A stretch of DNA of 62,874 bases, filler included. It is 12 parts of 12 records of this genome, joined end to end, with 100 filler letters (N's around TTAATTAATTAA, not from the genome) between each part and the next. Parts side by side here need not be neighbours in the genome. Positions count along the whole stretch, not along the records: positions 34,779 to 39,220 come from SRR15195285_1520; 11 more parts are not named here. The stretch is one strand, 5' to 3'. A program made the translations under genes and the position numbers. Under the pieces are notes generated by a model. It ran no database searches, was not told the DNA's origin, and saw only the letters and a list, made by a program, of their open reading frames with translations. Positions within the stretch are counted from its first letter, which is position 1. Each line of letters opens with the position of its first letter. This document shows, one piece after another, positions 34,779 to 39,220 of the stretch.

Positions 34779-34873
34779 GACCTTACCGACACTTTAAGAT
34801 CCGGTGTGTGCGTGCGCGCCCAGCACCGCGCCCCGGCGCGCGCCACGCGCCGGTCAGCGGGGGGGGGCACGAA

Positions 34874-35693
34874 ATGATGGGAGGGCAGGCGGGCGCTGCC
34901 ACCGCGTTGCTCTTGCTGTGCGTCTTGCGTGTAGGCCACGGCCACCTCGGCACGGCTCCAGGGCGCTTCTTCGCGCCTCCGCCGCCGATTCCAGTCAACC
35001 TGCGCAGCAACGCGTCTTGTGCGACAACCTTCGCGCTGAATGGCTCCAAGTATGACGTGTCGTCGCTCCAGGTTGACGTCGGTGGTTGGGTCGCGGAGAA
35101 CAGCGTCGACAAGTTCTCCTGTGCGCAATATTGATCGGATTCGATGTCTGCCTGTGGCCGCAGCGTGCCCCACAGTACTGAATACGAACTCTTAACAGGC
35201 CGTCTGTTGTGGCAGACTGCATCAACGTGTGCGCGGTGGTGACGTCCGAACGCAATTGCATCTGTTACCCATGTGGCGCCACCGAGTACCCCTCGTCGCA
35301 GGTCGACAAGGACCCGGTGAAGGGGGAGACCTGCGAAAGCTGTGCGGATGCCCCGCAGTGCTATCTTGCCCCACATGCACCTGTCAGCTGACACGCACCC
35401 GGCTCCCCCACGCAGATCTCGGCGAGCTGCAGAGCAGTACGTGGTCGACCAACACCGACCCAGAGAAGCCCGGCATTACGCTCGCGTACGGTGATGGGCA
35501 ACAAGGGAAGTCAACTGAACTAATGCTCGTCTGCGATCCGGCCGTCAGTGGACTTGACAATGGCCCGTCGTTTATCGGACACGGTCCCAGCGCTAGAGCG
35601 ATTGCGACGGAGACTCAAGCAAGAGGCGACGTCTTCCGATTCGAGTGGGTGACCAGTGCAGGCTGCCCGCTCAACGCTACCGCGCTGCGGTAG
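34874..35693 (+). CDS. Secreted single MRH (mannose-6-phosphate receptor homology) domain protein; exons 34874-35120, 35216-35341, 35416-35693
   Basis: Signal peptide; YDVSSL..YCINVC..YLG..GITLAYGDG..STELMLVCDP..FRFEWVTSAGCP is the MRH/ATG27 pattern. Introns are GT-AG and preserve frame. Confidence 0.8.
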
Positions 35694-36375
35694 CTGCATC
35701 GGTGTGAAGTACTCAAAATATCACTCGCTAGTTTACTCGCCCACTTTCTCCAGGCAACGCCACCGACCTTGGCCCCGCTGTGCGGACCTAATAGTGATAG
35801 TGAGCTGTGTCGTACTGTAGTCTCGAATGCGTGGCGGCGACCGCATGGGCCGAGGCACAGAAAAAGGTAACACGGTGCGCGGAGTTTTGCGCGGAGTTTT
35901 GCTACATCTGCCTGGCAGTGCCTGGCGTGTGAGCTGTGGCCTTTTTCAGCTGTACCTTTTCAGTTTCTGGCAGTACAGTCCTGTGCCTAGGCTGGCTTAC
36001 CGAAAAATGTGTGTGGGAGATGGCCTTACTGAAAGCTCTTCGCGGCTCTCCTTACGCACAGCATGGCACATGCCATGGCCGAGCTGTTCGTATCGTGTCT
36101 ACAGGCAGGTGTTGTACATGTGTGACTACAACACCGAATGCCTCAATTGTACTTAAGCATCATTACCGTGAAATTTCGTTTCACCTTGGCTGTGTCGATT
36201 GGTGTTGACCTGTAGACACTCTCAACAACTACGAGGCAGGCCGTTAACAGTTTGTTTTCGCACACAGGAATGCGGGGAGCGGAGGGGAGGAGGGGGCCAG
36301 AGAGACGGGGAATATTAAACACACATGTTGATGAATCTACACTGACTTCGCGGACGGGACCTTAGCCGTCTTTAC

Positions 36376-38742
36376 CTAGTCCTCGGCCTTCTCGTCTCCT
36401 GCGGCGGCCGCACCGGCCTGCTCTTCCTCACCAAGCTTCTTCTTGGCCTCAGCAGCCTCATCAACTGTAGCATCTTCACGGATCATTGCGAGCATTACCT
36501 TAGCGAGCGGATGGTTGGCATAGGTGCAGCAGATCTTCTGGATACCCAGCAGCGGGACACTCAGGACAGCTCCGAGCAGACCCCACATGGCGCTCCAGAG
36601 CACGAGAGCGAAAAGGATAGACATAGGCGTCATGTTCAGCAGTTTGCCGAACATGACTGGCTCAAGGGCGTTGCCCACGTAGCCCTGCACGAGACCCGGA
36701 CCGGCAAAAGCGCCGATCTTCTGCCACATTTCGAGGTTGTCGTCGACCAGAACAATAGGCATTGGAAGGAACATTGCGATCATGGAGCCTACGTTGGGGA
36801 TGTAGTTGAGCAAGAACGACAGGAGACCGAACATGACAGCCAGCTTGACCTGCAGAGCGAGGAGGATCACGGCGACGATAGCACCGGTTAGGGCAGAGAG
36901 AGCTGTCTTCAGGCCGATGTAGCCCGTGGTCATCGACTCGATCTCCTGCAGCATGCCTTCGCCTTCTCCGAACATCTTTTTCTCCACCTTCTCGCTGAGG
37001 ATGTACAGTGTCAACAAGAAGATCAGCGCGAACTGATTGAAAAAGTCGCCAAATGACCCGATGATAGCAGAGAGCTCAGCTTCGGTGTAGCGAGGGTCTT
37101 GCTCGCGCAGAACCTTAACGCCGCTTGCGTTCAGCTCCGAGTATACGTCGTCCACCATCCCGTTGAGCTTTTCCATGAATTCCGGGTCCCCAAACACCGC
37201 CCCGAGCTCGACGGCAACAAGAACAGCGACCGCAGCGAAGCCAGCGAACACCACGACGAGAGTACCCAGCACACCAACGCCTGGCCCAAGGCCGAGCTTG
37301 TGGTTGAAGAAGTCCATGATCGGCCCGAACAGGAACGTGCAGAAGTACGAGATGGTAAGTGGCACCAGCATAAAGTTGAAGTAGATCAGCCCCGCCAGGA
37401 TGACGCCGCCAGAAGTCAAGAGGAGGCCAGTGTTCGCCGCCCAGAGGACTTCGCCACGGCCCCACATGCGTGTGCCCAGTGAACCAACCTGGATCTGGTC
37501 CATGACATCAAGCTGCTCTGGCTGGATGTGTTTCACCATTGTGGGCACAAACTCGTCGAAATCAATCTGACCGTCGTCATTTTCGTCCATTTCCAAGAAC
37601 ATCTCCTGCAGCTCGTCCTCTTCGACTTCGATGTTGAGCATCTTCAACATGTCAGTGAACTGACGGTGACCTAGGTACCCAATGTGCTGCGGGTCAGCCA
37701 TTGCGAATAGTTCCTTGAACTTATCAACCTCCTCTTCGCTCAGGCCCGCGCCATCCTTCAGATCCGGGAACTCGTAGCGCTTGTTCCAGATCTGGTGGCC
37801 ATAGACGGCGGGGTTCTCCTGCTTCTTCTTGCGGAACGCCTGCTTCTTTACCTTCATCATGTAGACGGCCGCCGCCTCTTGGTCTGGCACAAGATCTAGC
37901 AATCCGAGGCCACGCACGACCCCAGCAAGCTCATCCTTGTCGATGGTGCCGTTGCCGTTTGTATCGTACTTCTGGAACGACTCTTCCAGCAGAGCCGGCT
38001 CTTCGATCGGCGGATCCAAGTTGCGCAGGTACTTCTTGAACTCATCCGCAGTGAGGCAAAGGTCGTGGTCTTTGTCGATCATGGCGAAGAGAGCGAAGCA
38101 CCGCGCGCGGAACTCGTCGTCGTCGTCGATATAGCGGTCGGGGTTGTAGGCCACCGTCTTTTCTTCGCCCTGCGCGTCAATTTCGGTCACCTCTTCGAGC
38201 AGGTCGAACTGAGCCATGATCCCCTTCAGCAGTCCTCTGAAGAACAGCACGGTGTCAGTTGGAGCTGGCCTCAGGCACTACGTGGTTTAGCATATATTCT
38301 CGCCGGGGCATCTTCGCAGATCTAGTACGGTTTGGAGTACGCACCCGCCGGCCACGACGTTGTCTTCCCAGTACTTCTTGAACTCGTCGAAGTCCACCTG
38401 CCCGTCTCCGCTCGGGTCGAGCTCAGTCATCGCGGCGTCCAGCTCCGCCTCGGTAAATGTTTGCCCGGCCATCTCAACCAGCGAGCGGACTTCCTCCCGG
38501 TCGAGCGTACCGCTCCCATCCTACGCGGTCCACAGCAACGATCATCAGCAGCCAGCCCAGCACGCGGGCCCTGGAACAGCACACGGCCGAGACACGTACT
38601 CCCGAAGCGCGCGGGGCTGCGTGTGGTGTCGTGAAGGGCGCCCCCCCTCGGGGGGAGCGGGGGGAGGGGGAGAGGGGCTGGGACTGACCTCGTCGATCTG
38701 CTCGAACGCCTCCTGCAGCGGGGTCTTCTTCTCATCCGCCAT
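36376..38742 (-). CDS. AI-2E (PerM/TqsA) family transporter with six N-terminal EF-hands; exons 38742-38689, 38520-38345, 38236-36376
   Basis: YIGLKT, FGLLSFLLNYIPNVGS, GNALEPVMFG and WSAMWGLLGAVLSVPL are AI-2E motifs. EF loops DEDGSGTLDREE, DPSGDGQVDFDE, DKDHDLCLTADE, DTNGNGTIDKDE, DPQHIGYLGHRQ (degenerate) and DENDDGQIDFDE. Confidence 0.88.
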
Positions 38743-39220
38743 CGCCGACCCGCCCACTCAAACACACACCACCTCTACTGCCCACAGGGCCGCAGAGGAC
38801 ACTGCCCTCCACACCCGAACACACGCGCCGAGTCCAGCTCTGCGGCCACTGCAACTTCCTCCCGTTTTCCCTGTGAGACACGAGACAGCACCAGCAGCAC
38901 AAGCCTCAGCGGGGGAAATCACCTCAACCCTGCACCCACAGCCCGTGCCGCCCCGCCCCCCTCCCTTCCAAGCAAGCAACGCCTGCCCTACAAGCCTCCC
39001 TTTACCCCCCTCCCCCTCCCCCGTCTCCCGAAGCTCTCCCGTCCTCACACACCCCTGTTTGGCTTAGCGCCCCACACGGCAGTCGTACGTAGCAGCACGG
39101 TGCACAACGCCCCTGACCCGCTGAGCGGGACAACACTAGCTTCGCGGCGTACCACACCTCCCCCTTCCAACCTTCCTGCGAATACCCCACACACACCCCT
39201 CCCCCAACCCACCCTCCCCT

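What the first reader, a model, noticed from the sequence alone, without database searches (positions are those of the whole stretch)
36376..38742. Six EF-hands fused to a bacterial-type AI-2E transporter
Seen: three EF-hand pairs (five canonical-looking loops, one degenerate) precede a complete AI-2E membrane domain in one spliced frame. Known: AI-2E/PerM proteins (TqsA, YdiK) are mainly prokaryotic, are linked to autoinducer-2 export or Na+(Li+)/H+ antiport, and carry no EF-hands. Inference: a prokaryote-like carrier has come under direct Ca2+ control in a protist, either for ion homeostasis or for handling bacterial small molecules.
Basis: partly seen in the sequence, partly recalled or inferred. 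Interest (0 to 1): 0.75.

Follow-up and report, generated by a model that had tools for sequence, protein, structure and literature searches.

The report
Calcium-sensing EF-hands on an AI-2E transporter

Summary
A three-exon gene on the minus strand (38742..36376; 696 aa) encodes three EF-hand pairs followed by a full AI-2E/PerM domain (Pfam PF01594, E 6e-33). Its predicted fold matches E. coli TqsA end to end (Z 24.3). RNA contigs from four marine metatranscriptome studies lack both GT-AG introns, and an 88%-identical 713-aa environmental protein is colinear across both junctions.

Four loops are canonical (EF1, 2, 4, 6). EF3 lacks the Gly at loop position 6. EF5 is degenerate but conserved.

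The gene is neither a one-off nor a recent bacterial import. Of the 120 closest listed clusters, 66 carry EF-hand plus AI-2E. In two trees the fused forms fall on one side of a branch inside a long-form clade whose named members are all eukaryotes (Picozoa, Mastigamoeba, Mastigella, Rhodomonas). One relative adds a cyclic-nucleotide-binding domain.

The residues proposed for TqsA's substrate cavity are kept, while the signature of the UPF0118 Na+/H+ antiporter group is not.

The likeliest reading is a cytosolic Ca2+ sensor attached directly before helix H1, which forms the pentamer's cytoplasmic hub in TqsA. This would gate a small-solute carrier of unknown substrate. Ca2+ control is inferred, not shown. 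Four literature searches found no paper on the fusion. I rate it a new variant of a known kind, of moderate interest.

The parts
38689..38742 (-). Exon 1, coding part (residues 1-18). It holds the start codon and the first two residues of the EF1 loop. The 5' UTR reaches at least 38749.
   Evidence: Translation. An in-frame stop lies 5 codons upstream. RNA contigs reach 38744-38749. P0005 aligns from its Met.
38521..38688 (-). Intron 1 (168 nt, GT..AG). It splits the EF1 loop.
   Evidence: The joint 38519/20 to 38688/9 appears in RNA contigs of X2, X3 and X13.
38345..38520 (-). Exon 2 (residues 19-76 plus two bases of codon 77). It holds the rest of EF1, and the EF2 loop at 38383-38418.
   Evidence: Pfam EF-hand_7 at E 1.9e-11. 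Canonical loop matches.
38237..38344 (-). Intron 2 (108 nt, GT..AG, phase 2).
   Evidence: The joint 38236 to 38345 appears in RNA contigs of X2, X3 and X4.
36376..38236 (-). Exon 3 (residues 77-696 plus the stop). It holds EF3-EF6, the linker, the AI-2E domain and the C-terminal tail. The 3' UTR runs to about 36309.
   Evidence: RNA contigs cover 36309-38236.
38041..38076 (-). EF3 loop (residues 131-142), near-canonical, with Leu at position 6.
   Evidence: The fold of residues 37-109 of the exon-3 product matches calmodulin lobes at Z about 9.4.
37930..37965 (-). EF4 loop (residues 168-179, DTNGNGTIDKDE), canonical. Only 5 of the 12 loop positions vary among the 10 six-EF sequences.
37660..37695 (-). 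EF5 loop (residues 258-269), degenerate with Gln at position 12, but conserved in sequence.
37552..37587 (-). EF6 loop (residues 294-305), canonical. It is the loop nearest the membrane and probably the one also kept by the two-EF forms (inferred from position, not aligned).
   Evidence: Residues 158-241 of the exon-3 product match the calmodulin N-lobe at Z up to 10.4.
37432..37476 (-). Conserved pre-H1 linker motif GTRMWGRGEVLWAAN (residues 331-345), specific to the EF-bearing clade.
   Evidence: The pattern is found in 20 of 42 EF-clade rows and in 0 of the 136 others. Alignment.
36472..37470 (-). AI-2E/TqsA-fold membrane domain (residues 333-665). The Pfam match itself spans 36532-37401.
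   Evidence: Pfam. TqsA 7nb6 at E 2e-20. Foldseek E 5.9e-9, TM 0.67. VIA Z 24.3 with 309 residues aligned.
36457..36516 (-). Conserved cytosolic C-terminal tail NHPLAKVMLAMIREDATVDE (residues 651-670).
   Evidence: NHPxAK occurs in 30 of 42 EF-clade rows and in 0 of the 136 others. [IVL]RED occurs in 32 of 42 EF-clade rows and 14 of 35 sister-clade rows. Alignment.

Best explanation
This is a real, expressed eukaryotic gene for a 696-residue membrane protein. It has a cytosolic N-terminal module of three EF-hand pairs (four canonical Ca2+ loops), then a 35-residue conserved linker, then a complete AI-2E (TqsA/PerM-type) transporter domain, and it ends in a conserved cytosolic tail.

Shown: the gene model, its expression, the domains, the fold, and that it belongs to a clade of such fusions.

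Inferred:
1. Like TqsA, the protein forms a pentamer with both termini in the cytosol.
2. The EF module hangs directly on helix H1. In TqsA, H1 entwines with its four neighbours around the fivefold axis and makes the main cytoplasmic contact.
3. Ca2+ binding to EF6 and the other canonical loops opens the EF pairs and moves the linker and H1. This switches the carrier cavity (H5, HP1, H6) between inactive and active states. The design resembles the Ca2+-regulated mitochondrial carriers, although the fold is unrelated.
4. The substrate is a small polar solute rather than Na+/H+. Its identity and the direction of transport are unknown.
For: Gene and expression:
- Spliced RNA contigs come from four studies, one of them an oligo-dT library.
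- The homologue P0005 is colinear across both junctions.
- The CDS has a single terminal stop.

Domains and fold:
- PF01594 at E 6.3e-33 and EF-hand_7 at E 2.8e-23.
- AlphaFold2 model with mean pLDDT 83.9.
- TqsA 7nb6_A at Z 24.3, rmsd 4.5, 309 of 340 residues aligned; model 256-588 matches chain 2-341. Foldseek gives E 5.9e-9.

Topology and the role of H1:
- The TqsA paper states that both termini are cytoplasmic and that H1 of the five protomers entwines around the fivefold axis as the major cytoplasmic contact (PMC9475539, passages read).
- No hydrophobic segment precedes residue 340, so the N-terminal EF-hand region lacks a signal-peptide-like hydrophobic stretch.

Selection on Ca2+ binding:
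- EF1, EF2, EF4 and EF6 stay canonical in nearly all of the 10 six-EF sequences, which are 48-90% identical. The exceptions are one loop each in P0016, for EF1 and EF2.

Coupling elements:
- The pre-H1 motif GTRxWxRGE (20 of 42 rows) and the tail motif NHPxAK (30 of 42 rows) occur only in the EF clade, and in 0 of the 136 other rows.

Regulatory reading:
- The fusion falls on one side of a branch in both trees.
- One member adds a cNMP-binding domain in front of the EF pair.

Substrate class:
- TqsA Y196, K200, P237, N238 and E280 are identical here (Y516, K520, P557, N558, E602 in full-length numbering), read from the alignment and the residues named.
- Five of the ten residues of the UPF0118 antiporter signature differ.
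Against: - No experiment or computation here shows Ca2+ binding or any effect on transport.
- The conserved cavity residues are nearly invariant across the relatives aligned here (A1), so they do not identify a substrate.
- TqsA's own AI-2 binding site rests on docking.
- The protein scores 80.4 bits against the NCBIfam TqsA-type subfamily model, whose cut-off is 318. It is therefore not a TqsA orthologue.
- Pentamer formation could not be modelled because of the size limit.
- EF-hands are promiscuous domains and could serve targeting or assembly rather than gating.
- EF-clade support in the better tree is only SH-aLRT 80, although a core of 24 rows has 99.
Confidence: 0.6

Rival explanations
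1. It is a Ca2+-regulated Na+(Li+)/H+ antiporter for ion or pH homeostasis.
For: Some AI-2E members (the UPF0118 group) are proven Na+(Li+)/H+ antiporters (PMC7221264, abstract and passages). The E-P motif (E602-P603) and the motif-A glutamate (E492) are kept.
Against: By the paper's own signature, five positions fail when the printed motif consensuses are compared with the alignment. Q217 corresponds to Ala. D251, for which even Glu was inactive, corresponds to Asn. R292 and R293, which are not replaceable by Lys, correspond to Gly and Asn. K298 corresponds to Val. The motif pattern LNYIPNxGS / GNxLEP is that of TqsA.
Confidence: 0.1
2. It exports or handles AI-2/DPD-like furanones or other bacterial signals under Ca2+ control, for example during feeding.
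For: Five of the six residues that docking places around AI-2 in TqsA are identical, and M284 is Phe here. Picozoa live among marine bacteria (a general fact; PMC8599508 was seen in a search listing only).
Against: Those residues are nearly invariant in A1, the alignment of this protein's relatives, bacterial ones included. The gene lies in an old clade whose named members are all eukaryotes, so no link to bacterial signalling is needed. No AI-2 synthesis or sensing genes were examined, since no genome is held.
Confidence: 0.1
3. The EF-hands do not gate transport. Instead they act as a Ca2+-dependent tether or assembly module (membrane, cytoskeleton or partner binding), or simply as a structural cap.
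For: EF5 is degenerate yet strongly conserved, and EF3 is non-canonical, which is typical of structural EF-hands. EF-hand fusions are very common in eukaryotes (general knowledge).
Against: Four loops are kept canonical across sequences 48-90% identical. A clade-specific conserved linker joins EF6 to H1, with no long disordered spacer.
Confidence: 0.15
4. The pentamer works as a Ca2+-gated channel through the central opening lined by H1, rather than as a carrier.
For: TqsA and YdiK have a pentagonal central opening 17-20 Å wide at the cytoplasmic face, lined by H1. The EF module attaches exactly there.
Against: In the solved structures the opening is hydrophobic and plugged by a Met ring or by lipid/detergent, and the authors argue that it does not conduct. 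Nothing was tested here.
Confidence: 0.04
5. It is an assembly chimera, bacterial contamination or a mis-joined gene model.
For: The window is a chain of short contigs joined by N/TTAATTAATTAA linkers, and single-cell assemblies are prone to chimeras.
Against: The whole gene lies inside one contig, 34779-39220. Independent RNA contigs from four studies span the EF-to-membrane junction and both splice joints. Dozens of environmental proteins share the architecture.
Confidence: 0.01

Closest known systems
E. coli TqsA (YdgG) and YdiK, AI-2E family, TC 2.A.86, PDB 7nb6
   Same: The full-length domain is shared: H1-H4, TMH5, HP1, TMH6 and HP2 (Z 24.3). The sequence match is E 2e-20 over TqsA residues 21-326. 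The cavity residues Y, K, P, N and E are identical.
   Different: Identity is only about 22-24%. The protein scores far below the NCBIfam subfamily cut-off. It is eukaryotic, with introns. It has a 330-residue N-terminal EF-hand module, a clade-specific linker and a tail. R282 is replaced by Val and M284 by Phe.
UPF0118 Na+(Li+)/H+ antiporter of Halobacillus andaensis (AI-2E Na+/H+ antiporter group)
   Same: Same Pfam family. The E-P motif (motif D) and the motif-A Glu are kept.
   Different: Five of the ten signature residues differ, including D251 (Asn here), which was indispensable, and the R292-R293 pair (Gly-Asn here), which was not replaceable.
Human TMEM245 (orphan eukaryotic AI-2E-like protein)
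   Same: It is eukaryotic and matches PF01594.
   Different: According to PMC9333335 (passages read), only the last 5 TM helices of TMEM245 match the C-terminal part of the Pfam model, within a protein predicted to have 14 TM helices. The protein here matches positions 11-321 of 327 and the whole TqsA structure. No TMEM245 sequence was available for direct comparison.
Ca2+-regulated mitochondrial carriers (SCaMC/APC, SLC25A24; aralar/citrin, SLC25A12/13). Recalled, no call made.
   Same: The design is the same: an N-terminal multi-EF-hand regulatory module on the cytosol-facing side, fused in one chain to a solute carrier, with some non-binding EF-hands kept for structure.
   Different: The carrier fold is unrelated (six-helix mitochondrial carrier versus AI-2E). 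The oligomeric state and the membrane differ. This is an analogy of mechanism, not membership.
EF-hand-bearing NADPH oxidases (NOX5, plant RBOH) and plant TPC1. Recalled, no call made.
   Same: Cytosolic EF-hands built into a polytopic membrane protein convert Ca2+ signals into activity.
   Different: The catalytic or channel domains are different.

Membership tests
AI-2E / PerM / UPF0118 superfamily (Pfam PF01594, TC 2.A.86) | Match to the family profile above the curated threshold and over its whole length | tested here: met
   114.8 bits against a cut-off of 34.3, covering profile positions 11-321 of 327.
AI-2E / PerM / UPF0118 superfamily (Pfam PF01594, TC 2.A.86) | TqsA protomer fold (H1-H4, TMH5, HP1, TMH6, HP2) | tested here: met
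   AF2 model with pLDDT 83.9. 7nb6_A at Z 24.3 with 309 of 340 residues aligned. Foldseek TM 0.67.
AI-2E / PerM / UPF0118 superfamily (Pfam PF01594, TC 2.A.86) | Conserved proline at the HP1 tip (I-P-N) and the E-P motif after H6 | tested here: met
   NYIPNVGS and GNALEP align with TqsA I236-P237-N238 and E280-P281 (residues named).
AI-2E / PerM / UPF0118 superfamily (Pfam PF01594, TC 2.A.86) | Homopentamer | not testable with these tools
   Five copies of 346 residues or more exceed the 1000-residue limit of complex prediction.
AI-2E / PerM / UPF0118 superfamily (Pfam PF01594, TC 2.A.86) | Transport activity | not testable with these tools
   This needs a bench assay.
TqsA-type subfamily (NCBIfam NF008930 / PRK12287) | Score above the curated subfamily cut-off | tested here: not met
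   80.4 bits against a cut-off of 318.
Na+(Li+)/H+ antiporter group of AI-2E (UPF0118) | Signature E179(D)-R182(K)-K215(A)-Q217(N)-D251-R292-R293-E296-K298(A)-S307 | tested here: not met
   I compared the motif consensuses printed in PMC7221264 by eye with the aligned motifs. Q217 is Ala here, D251 is Asn, R292 is Gly, R293 is Asn and K298 is Val. E179, K215 and E296 are kept. R182 and S307 could not be placed with confidence.
EF-hand Ca2+-binding domains | Helix-loop-helix pairs with a 12-residue loop carrying ligands at positions 1, 3, 5 and 12 and Gly at position 6 | tested here: met
   Pfam EF-hand_7/1/6. Four of the six loops fit the canonical pattern. The pairs superpose on calmodulin lobes at Z 9.4-10.4.
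EF-hand Ca2+-binding domains | Actual Ca2+ binding | not testable with these tools
   This needs ITC, 45Ca overlay or a similar assay.
TMEM245 (eukaryotic AI-2E-like) | About 14 TM helices, with only the C-terminal 5 matching PF01594 | tested here: not met
   The protein here matches the full profile and has no extra N-terminal TM helices. The first hydrophobic segment starts at residue 340. The TMEM245 features are taken from PMC9333335. No direct sequence comparison was possible.

The most novel reading that the evidence does not exclude
Picozoa-like marine protists have turned the poorly understood pentameric AI-2E transporter into a family of second-messenger-gated carriers. The input module is Ca2+-sensing (two or six EF-hands) in most members and cNMP plus Ca2+ in one branch. 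It is bolted onto H1 at the fivefold axis. These would be the first ligand-regulated AI-2E proteins. They would also give a practical handle, namely switchable activity, for finding out what AI-2E/TMEM245-type transporters carry in eukaryotes.
Probability: 0.3. Interest if true: 0.65.

Novelty: new variant of a known kind. Interest (0 to 1): 0.45.

Why it matters
AI-2E is a very large family: this membrane domain alone has 7936 relatives at E ≤ 0.001 among the 50%-identity representatives. Yet its substrates and mechanism remain largely unknown, and its human relative TMEM245 is an orphan.

A natural version with a built-in Ca2+ sensor placed at the pentamer's cytoplasmic hub would do two things. 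It would suggest how these transporters are gated, with H1 as the lever. It would also provide a switchable form for transport assays.

The finding further shows that full-length, bacterial-type AI-2E transporters form an established and diversified eukaryotic clade. In uncultured picozoan-like protists that clade has expanded, and the proteins are expressed in the ocean.

Tried and rejected
- Complex prediction: I asked whether the EF3-EF6 module (residues 36-250 of the exon-3 product) docks on its own membrane domain plus tail (251-619). The result was 'no answer', with a score of 0.00 in two runs. The alignment was not used and the controls were not run. This counts neither for nor against.
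- The protein-atlas search gave only archaeal and bacterial AI-2E clusters at 0.83-0.85. That is below the 0.9 level at which a hit counts as more than a lead, so it added nothing.
- The genome search 'own' failed because no genome is held for this window. Paralogues in the same genome and any AI-2-related genes could therefore not be sought. tblastn of the protein against the window found only the gene itself.
- The search of earlier findings by words and by sequence found nothing on this family.
- The rest of the contig (34779-36375) gave no hits: three + strand ORFs had no Pfam match, and Rfam found nothing on 34779-39220.
- Taxon names for ten more EF-type clusters were looked up and none was named.
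- Recent horizontal transfer from bacteria was considered and rejected. The gene has introns and belongs to the eukaryote-like long-form clade, and the best named bacterial relatives are only 27-33% identical.
- I did not run an AU test of EF-clade monophyly, and I made no comparison with TMEM245 itself because no sequence was at hand.
Full report
**Where the gene lies.** The window is a chain of short contigs separated by runs of N with TTAATTAATTAA linkers. The contig that holds the finding spans 34779-39220. On its minus strand there is a 633-codon open frame (36376-38277) and two shorter upstream frames.

**Gene model.** Reading the splice signals directly from the sequence gives three exons:
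- Exon 1 is 38742..38689 (MADEKKTPLQEAFEQIDE), with donor GTCAGT.
- Exon 2 is 38520..38345, with acceptor TAG| and donor GG|GTGCGT.
- Exon 3 is 38236..36376, with acceptor TTCTTCAG|.

Joined by coordinates, the exons give 2091 nt, or 696 codons plus one terminal stop.

**Independent support for the model.**
- The environmental protein P0005 (713 aa, 88% identical, from a 2176-nt contig) reads without a break through both predicted junctions: '...FEQIDEDNSGTLD...' and '...IVAGGGLLKGIM...'.
- Of the 23 public runs listed, 19 hold the stretch or part of it. Ten of these are on record as RNA, and the 19 come from 13 studies. All are labelled marine, seawater or surface metagenome.
- Logan contigs of four RNA runs from four studies (X2, X3, X4, X13; X13 is an oligo-dT library) were laid on 35900-39200. 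They show the joint 38236 to 38345 (108 nt skipped; X2, X3, X4) and the joint 38519/20 to 38688/9 (168 nt skipped; X2, X3, X13). Both are GT..AG on the minus strand. Coverage runs from about 36309 to 38749.
- One X2 contig is a 90-95% relative with 13 differences in exon 2 and a 3-nt insertion, so close variants co-occur in the sea.

The gene is therefore real, spliced as proposed and expressed.

**Domains.**
- Pfam on the exon-3 product (619 aa) gives PF01594 AI-2E_transport at E 6.3e-33 (114.8 bits, cut-off 34.3). The match covers residues 279-568, which is profile positions 11-321 of 327. EF-hand_7 scores E 2.8e-23. Exon 2 alone gives an EF-hand pair at E 1.9e-11.
- NCBIfam's TqsA-type subfamily model scores 80.4 bits against a cut-off of 318. 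The protein belongs to the superfamily but is not a TqsA orthologue.
- Among solved structures the best sequence match is E. coli TqsA (7nb6; E 2e-20; query 277-571 against chain 21-326 of 344). Calmodulins and troponin C follow, matching the EF region.
- An AlphaFold2 model built on a 67-row alignment has mean pLDDT 83.9 and pTM 0.62.
- Foldseek puts 7nb6_A first (E 5.9e-9, TM 0.67 normalised to the target).
- VIA-align gives Z 24.3, rmsd 4.5 Å and 309 of 340 residues aligned, with model 256-588 on chain 2-341. The next rows, all EF-hand proteins, are at Z 10.4 or less.
- Model residues 37-109 and 158-241 superpose on calmodulin lobes.

**EF-hands.** Numbering below is for the full-length protein, which equals the exon-3 index plus 77.
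- Canonical loops, fitting a pattern recalled from PROSITE:
  - EF1, 17-28, DEDGSGTLDREE; this loop is split by intron 1
  - EF2, 53-64
  - EF4, 168-179
  - EF6, 294-305
- EF3 (131-142, DKDHDLCLTADE) keeps the acidic ligands and Glu12 but has Leu at position 6.
- EF5 (258-269, DPQHIGYLGHRQ) is degenerate.
- Across ten six-EF sequences at 48-90% identity, the four canonical loops stay canonical, with a single exception each for EF1 and EF2 (P0016). EF5 is conserved as a non-binding loop.
- No hydrophobic segment precedes residue 340.

**How common the fusion is.**
- A whole-protein search found 96 relatives, of which I count 38 carrying both EF-hand families and PF01594.
- A search scored on the membrane part alone found 163 relatives at E ≤ 1e-5. 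Of the 120 listed, I count 66 with both. These counts were made by eye from the precomputed Pfam column.
- An exhaustive HMMER scan of 1.84 billion representatives with the membrane domain gave 7936 hits at E ≤ 0.001, 2762 at E ≤ 1e-10 and 126 at E ≤ 1e-30.
- Of the 97 best representatives scanned with Pfam, 7 carry EF-hands, one has a C-terminal SAM-like domain, one has no hit, and the rest have PF01594 only.
- Nearly all close relatives come from environmental sources. One source auto-labels some of them 'PerM/Ca2+-binding EF-hand superfamily protein'.

**Named relatives.**
- Among EF-type clusters the only named members are EukProt entries. Picozoa sp. COSAG01 sits in the cluster of P0013, which is 59% identical to this protein. 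SAG31 is P0291, a two-EF form.
- EF-less relatives include Picozoa sp. COSAG02, Mastigella eilhardi, Mastigamoeba balamuthi and Rhodomonas salina.
- Ten further EF-type clusters had no named member.
The hits above are consistent with that, but they do not prove it for this contig.

**Family structure: how the rows were chosen.**
- I built an HMM of the membrane domain from alignment A1.
- Of the 351 proteins held, 342 matched it, and 274 covered it to within 40 positions of both ends.
- Removing rows at least 75% identical over 200 or more residues left 178. Of these, 38 have at least one canonical loop in front of the domain.

**Family structure: FastTree of the 178 rows.**
- A clade of 77 long forms has support 100.
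- Within it, a clade of 42 (support 97) holds all 38 EF rows plus 4 others.
- Three of those 4 start at or only about 30 residues before the membrane domain. One of them (P0035) begins inside the EF6 exit helix, so they look like N-terminally truncated models. The fourth has a degenerate EF-like loop.
- The remaining 35 rows of the 77 are EF-less forms, most with long inserts in the membrane domain.

**Family structure: IQ-TREE quick tree.**
- It used 64 rows picked by hand from the 178: 29 EF-clade, 15 sister, 11 other long and 9 short. The last three labels were taken from the first tree.
- The model was LG+C20.
- The 29 EF-clade rows fall on one side of a branch with SH-aLRT 80, and a core of 24 rows has 99.
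- EF plus sister rows (44) have support 99.
- All 55 long forms have support 93, apart from the short bacterial-like forms. Those short forms include a Legionellales MAG and an Eudoraea protein (names).

**What the trees imply.**
- The fusion looks like a single event inside an established eukaryotic AI-2E clade.
- Six-EF forms (N-terminal extension about 310-335 residues) sit among two-EF forms (about 95-150 residues) in an unresolved subclade.
- By position, the membrane-proximal pair (EF5-EF6) is probably the original one and EF1-EF4 a later addition. The direction of this change is an inference, and the loops of the two-EF forms were not aligned to EF6.
- P0319 (977 aa) carries cNMP_binding (E 5.7e-15), an EF pair and PF01594. 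P0311 (922 aa) has a 480-residue extension with EF-hands.

**Coupling elements.**
- Between EF6 and H1 lies a 35-residue linker ending in GTRMWGRGEVLWAAN. The pattern G[TS]RxWx[RK]GE occurs in 20 of 42 EF-clade rows and in none of the 136 others.
- The cytosolic tail NHPLAKVMLAMIREDATVDE is conserved. NHPxAK occurs in 30 of 42 EF-clade rows and in none of the 136 others. [IVL]RED occurs in 32 of 42 EF-clade rows and in 14 of 35 sister rows, so that part is older than the fusion.

**Mechanistic reasoning.** The TqsA paper (PMC9475539; passages read) states four relevant things:
- Both termini are cytoplasmic.
- H1 (Thr7-Phe29) of the five protomers entwines around the fivefold axis as the major contact on the cytoplasmic face and lines a central opening.
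- Each protomer has a cavity formed by HP1, H5 and H6.
- Docking places AI-2 in that cavity near Tyr196, Lys200, Pro237, Asn238, Glu280 and Met284.

Counting along the HMMER alignment, these six positions correspond here to Y516, K520, P557, N558, E602 and F606. Five of the six are identical. The same positions are nearly invariant in A1, the alignment of this protein's relatives, so they mark the family's machinery and not a substrate.

The published signature of the Na+(Li+)/H+ antiporter group (PMC7221264; abstract and passages read) is not kept. Q217 is Ala here. D251, for which even Glu failed, is Asn. R292 and R293 are Gly and Asn. K298 is Val. This motif comparison was done by eye, using the consensus strings printed in the paper.

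I therefore favour a carrier of a small polar solute, gated from the cytosol. Five EF modules would hang at the hub formed by H1. Ca2+ would open the EF pairs, and the conserved linker would transmit that movement to H1. Everything after 'the EF module precedes H1' is inference. The closest analogies of design are the EF-hand-regulated mitochondrial carriers (SCaMC/APC, aralar), NOX5/RBOH and plant TPC1, all recalled and not looked up.

**Literature.** Four searches found no paper on this fusion:
- 'AI-2E' plus 'EF-hand' gave one unrelated paper.
- 'AI-2E family' or 'TMEM245'.
- AI-2E, eukaryotes, transporter and TCDB.
- PerM, EF-hand, permease and PF01594.

PMC9333335 (passages read) describes TMEM245 as an orphan in which only the last five TM helices weakly match the C-terminal part of PF01594. 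The protein here matches the full domain. The Picozoa single-cell genomics paper (PMC8599508) was seen only in a search listing. The library lacks most subscription journals, so absence from print is not proven.

**What led nowhere.**
- Complex prediction gave no verdict.
- The protein atlas gave leads below threshold.
- No genome is held for this window.
- The neighbouring ORFs have no Pfam hits and the contig has no Rfam hits.
- tblastn found no second copy in the window.

**Verdict.**
Ca2+ control is plausible. The 'prokaryote-like newcomer' framing is wrong, the antiporter role is unlikely, and a role in bacterial signalling is unsupported.
- I class it as a new variant of a known kind. 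It is an undescribed but abundant EF-hand-regulated branch of eukaryotic AI-2E transporters.
- Interest is moderate. EF-hand fusions are common, but this one sits at a mechanistically telling place in a family whose function is still open.

Noticed in passing
P0319 (environmental protein, 977 aa): A relative in the same EF clade carries a cyclic-nucleotide-binding domain (PF00027, E 5.7e-15, residues 269-355) in front of its EF pair and AI-2E domain. This suggests a second kind of second-messenger input on the same transporter.
   Followed up: partly
P0013, P0015, P0016, P0017, P0019, P0020 against window 37260-37300 (loop after H2): Other six-EF paralogues have a Cys-rich insert of about 48-55 residues (…RPIxCxxxxxCDP…) between the second and third helices of the membrane domain. 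Their domain length is 394-415 residues. The window's orthologue group lacks the insert (346 residues; 'NHKLGLGPG').
   Followed up: no
window 34877-35693, + strand: There are open frames convergent with the gene. The first starts with a signal-peptide-like hydrophobic stretch (MMGGQAGAATALLLLCVL…). They have no Pfam match, and no RNA was laid on this part.
   Followed up: partly
window 38743-39220, 38620-38680 and 36270-36300: Long C-rich or G-rich (polypyrimidine or polypurine) tracts lie upstream of the start codon, inside intron 1 and just past the 3' end of the transcript. They may be a feature of this genome's non-coding DNA.
   Followed up: no
window 8848-58307 (22 N-runs): The window is made of about 12 short contigs joined by 44-N / TTAATTAATTAA / 44-N linkers. 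Gene neighbourhood across linkers therefore means nothing.
   Followed up: yes
window 37850-37905 (residues about 188-207 of the full protein): A conserved basic amphipathic helix (…YMMKVKKQAFRKKKQENPAVYGH…) lies between EF4 and EF5. It resembles a calmodulin-target helix and could be an internal binding site for one of the EF pairs. This was not tested.
   Followed up: no
run X2, record 10: A second, 90-95%-identical transcript variant occurs in the same metatranscriptome. It has 13 differences in exon 2 and a 3-nt insertion after 38718. Closely related strains or species therefore co-occur.
   Followed up: no
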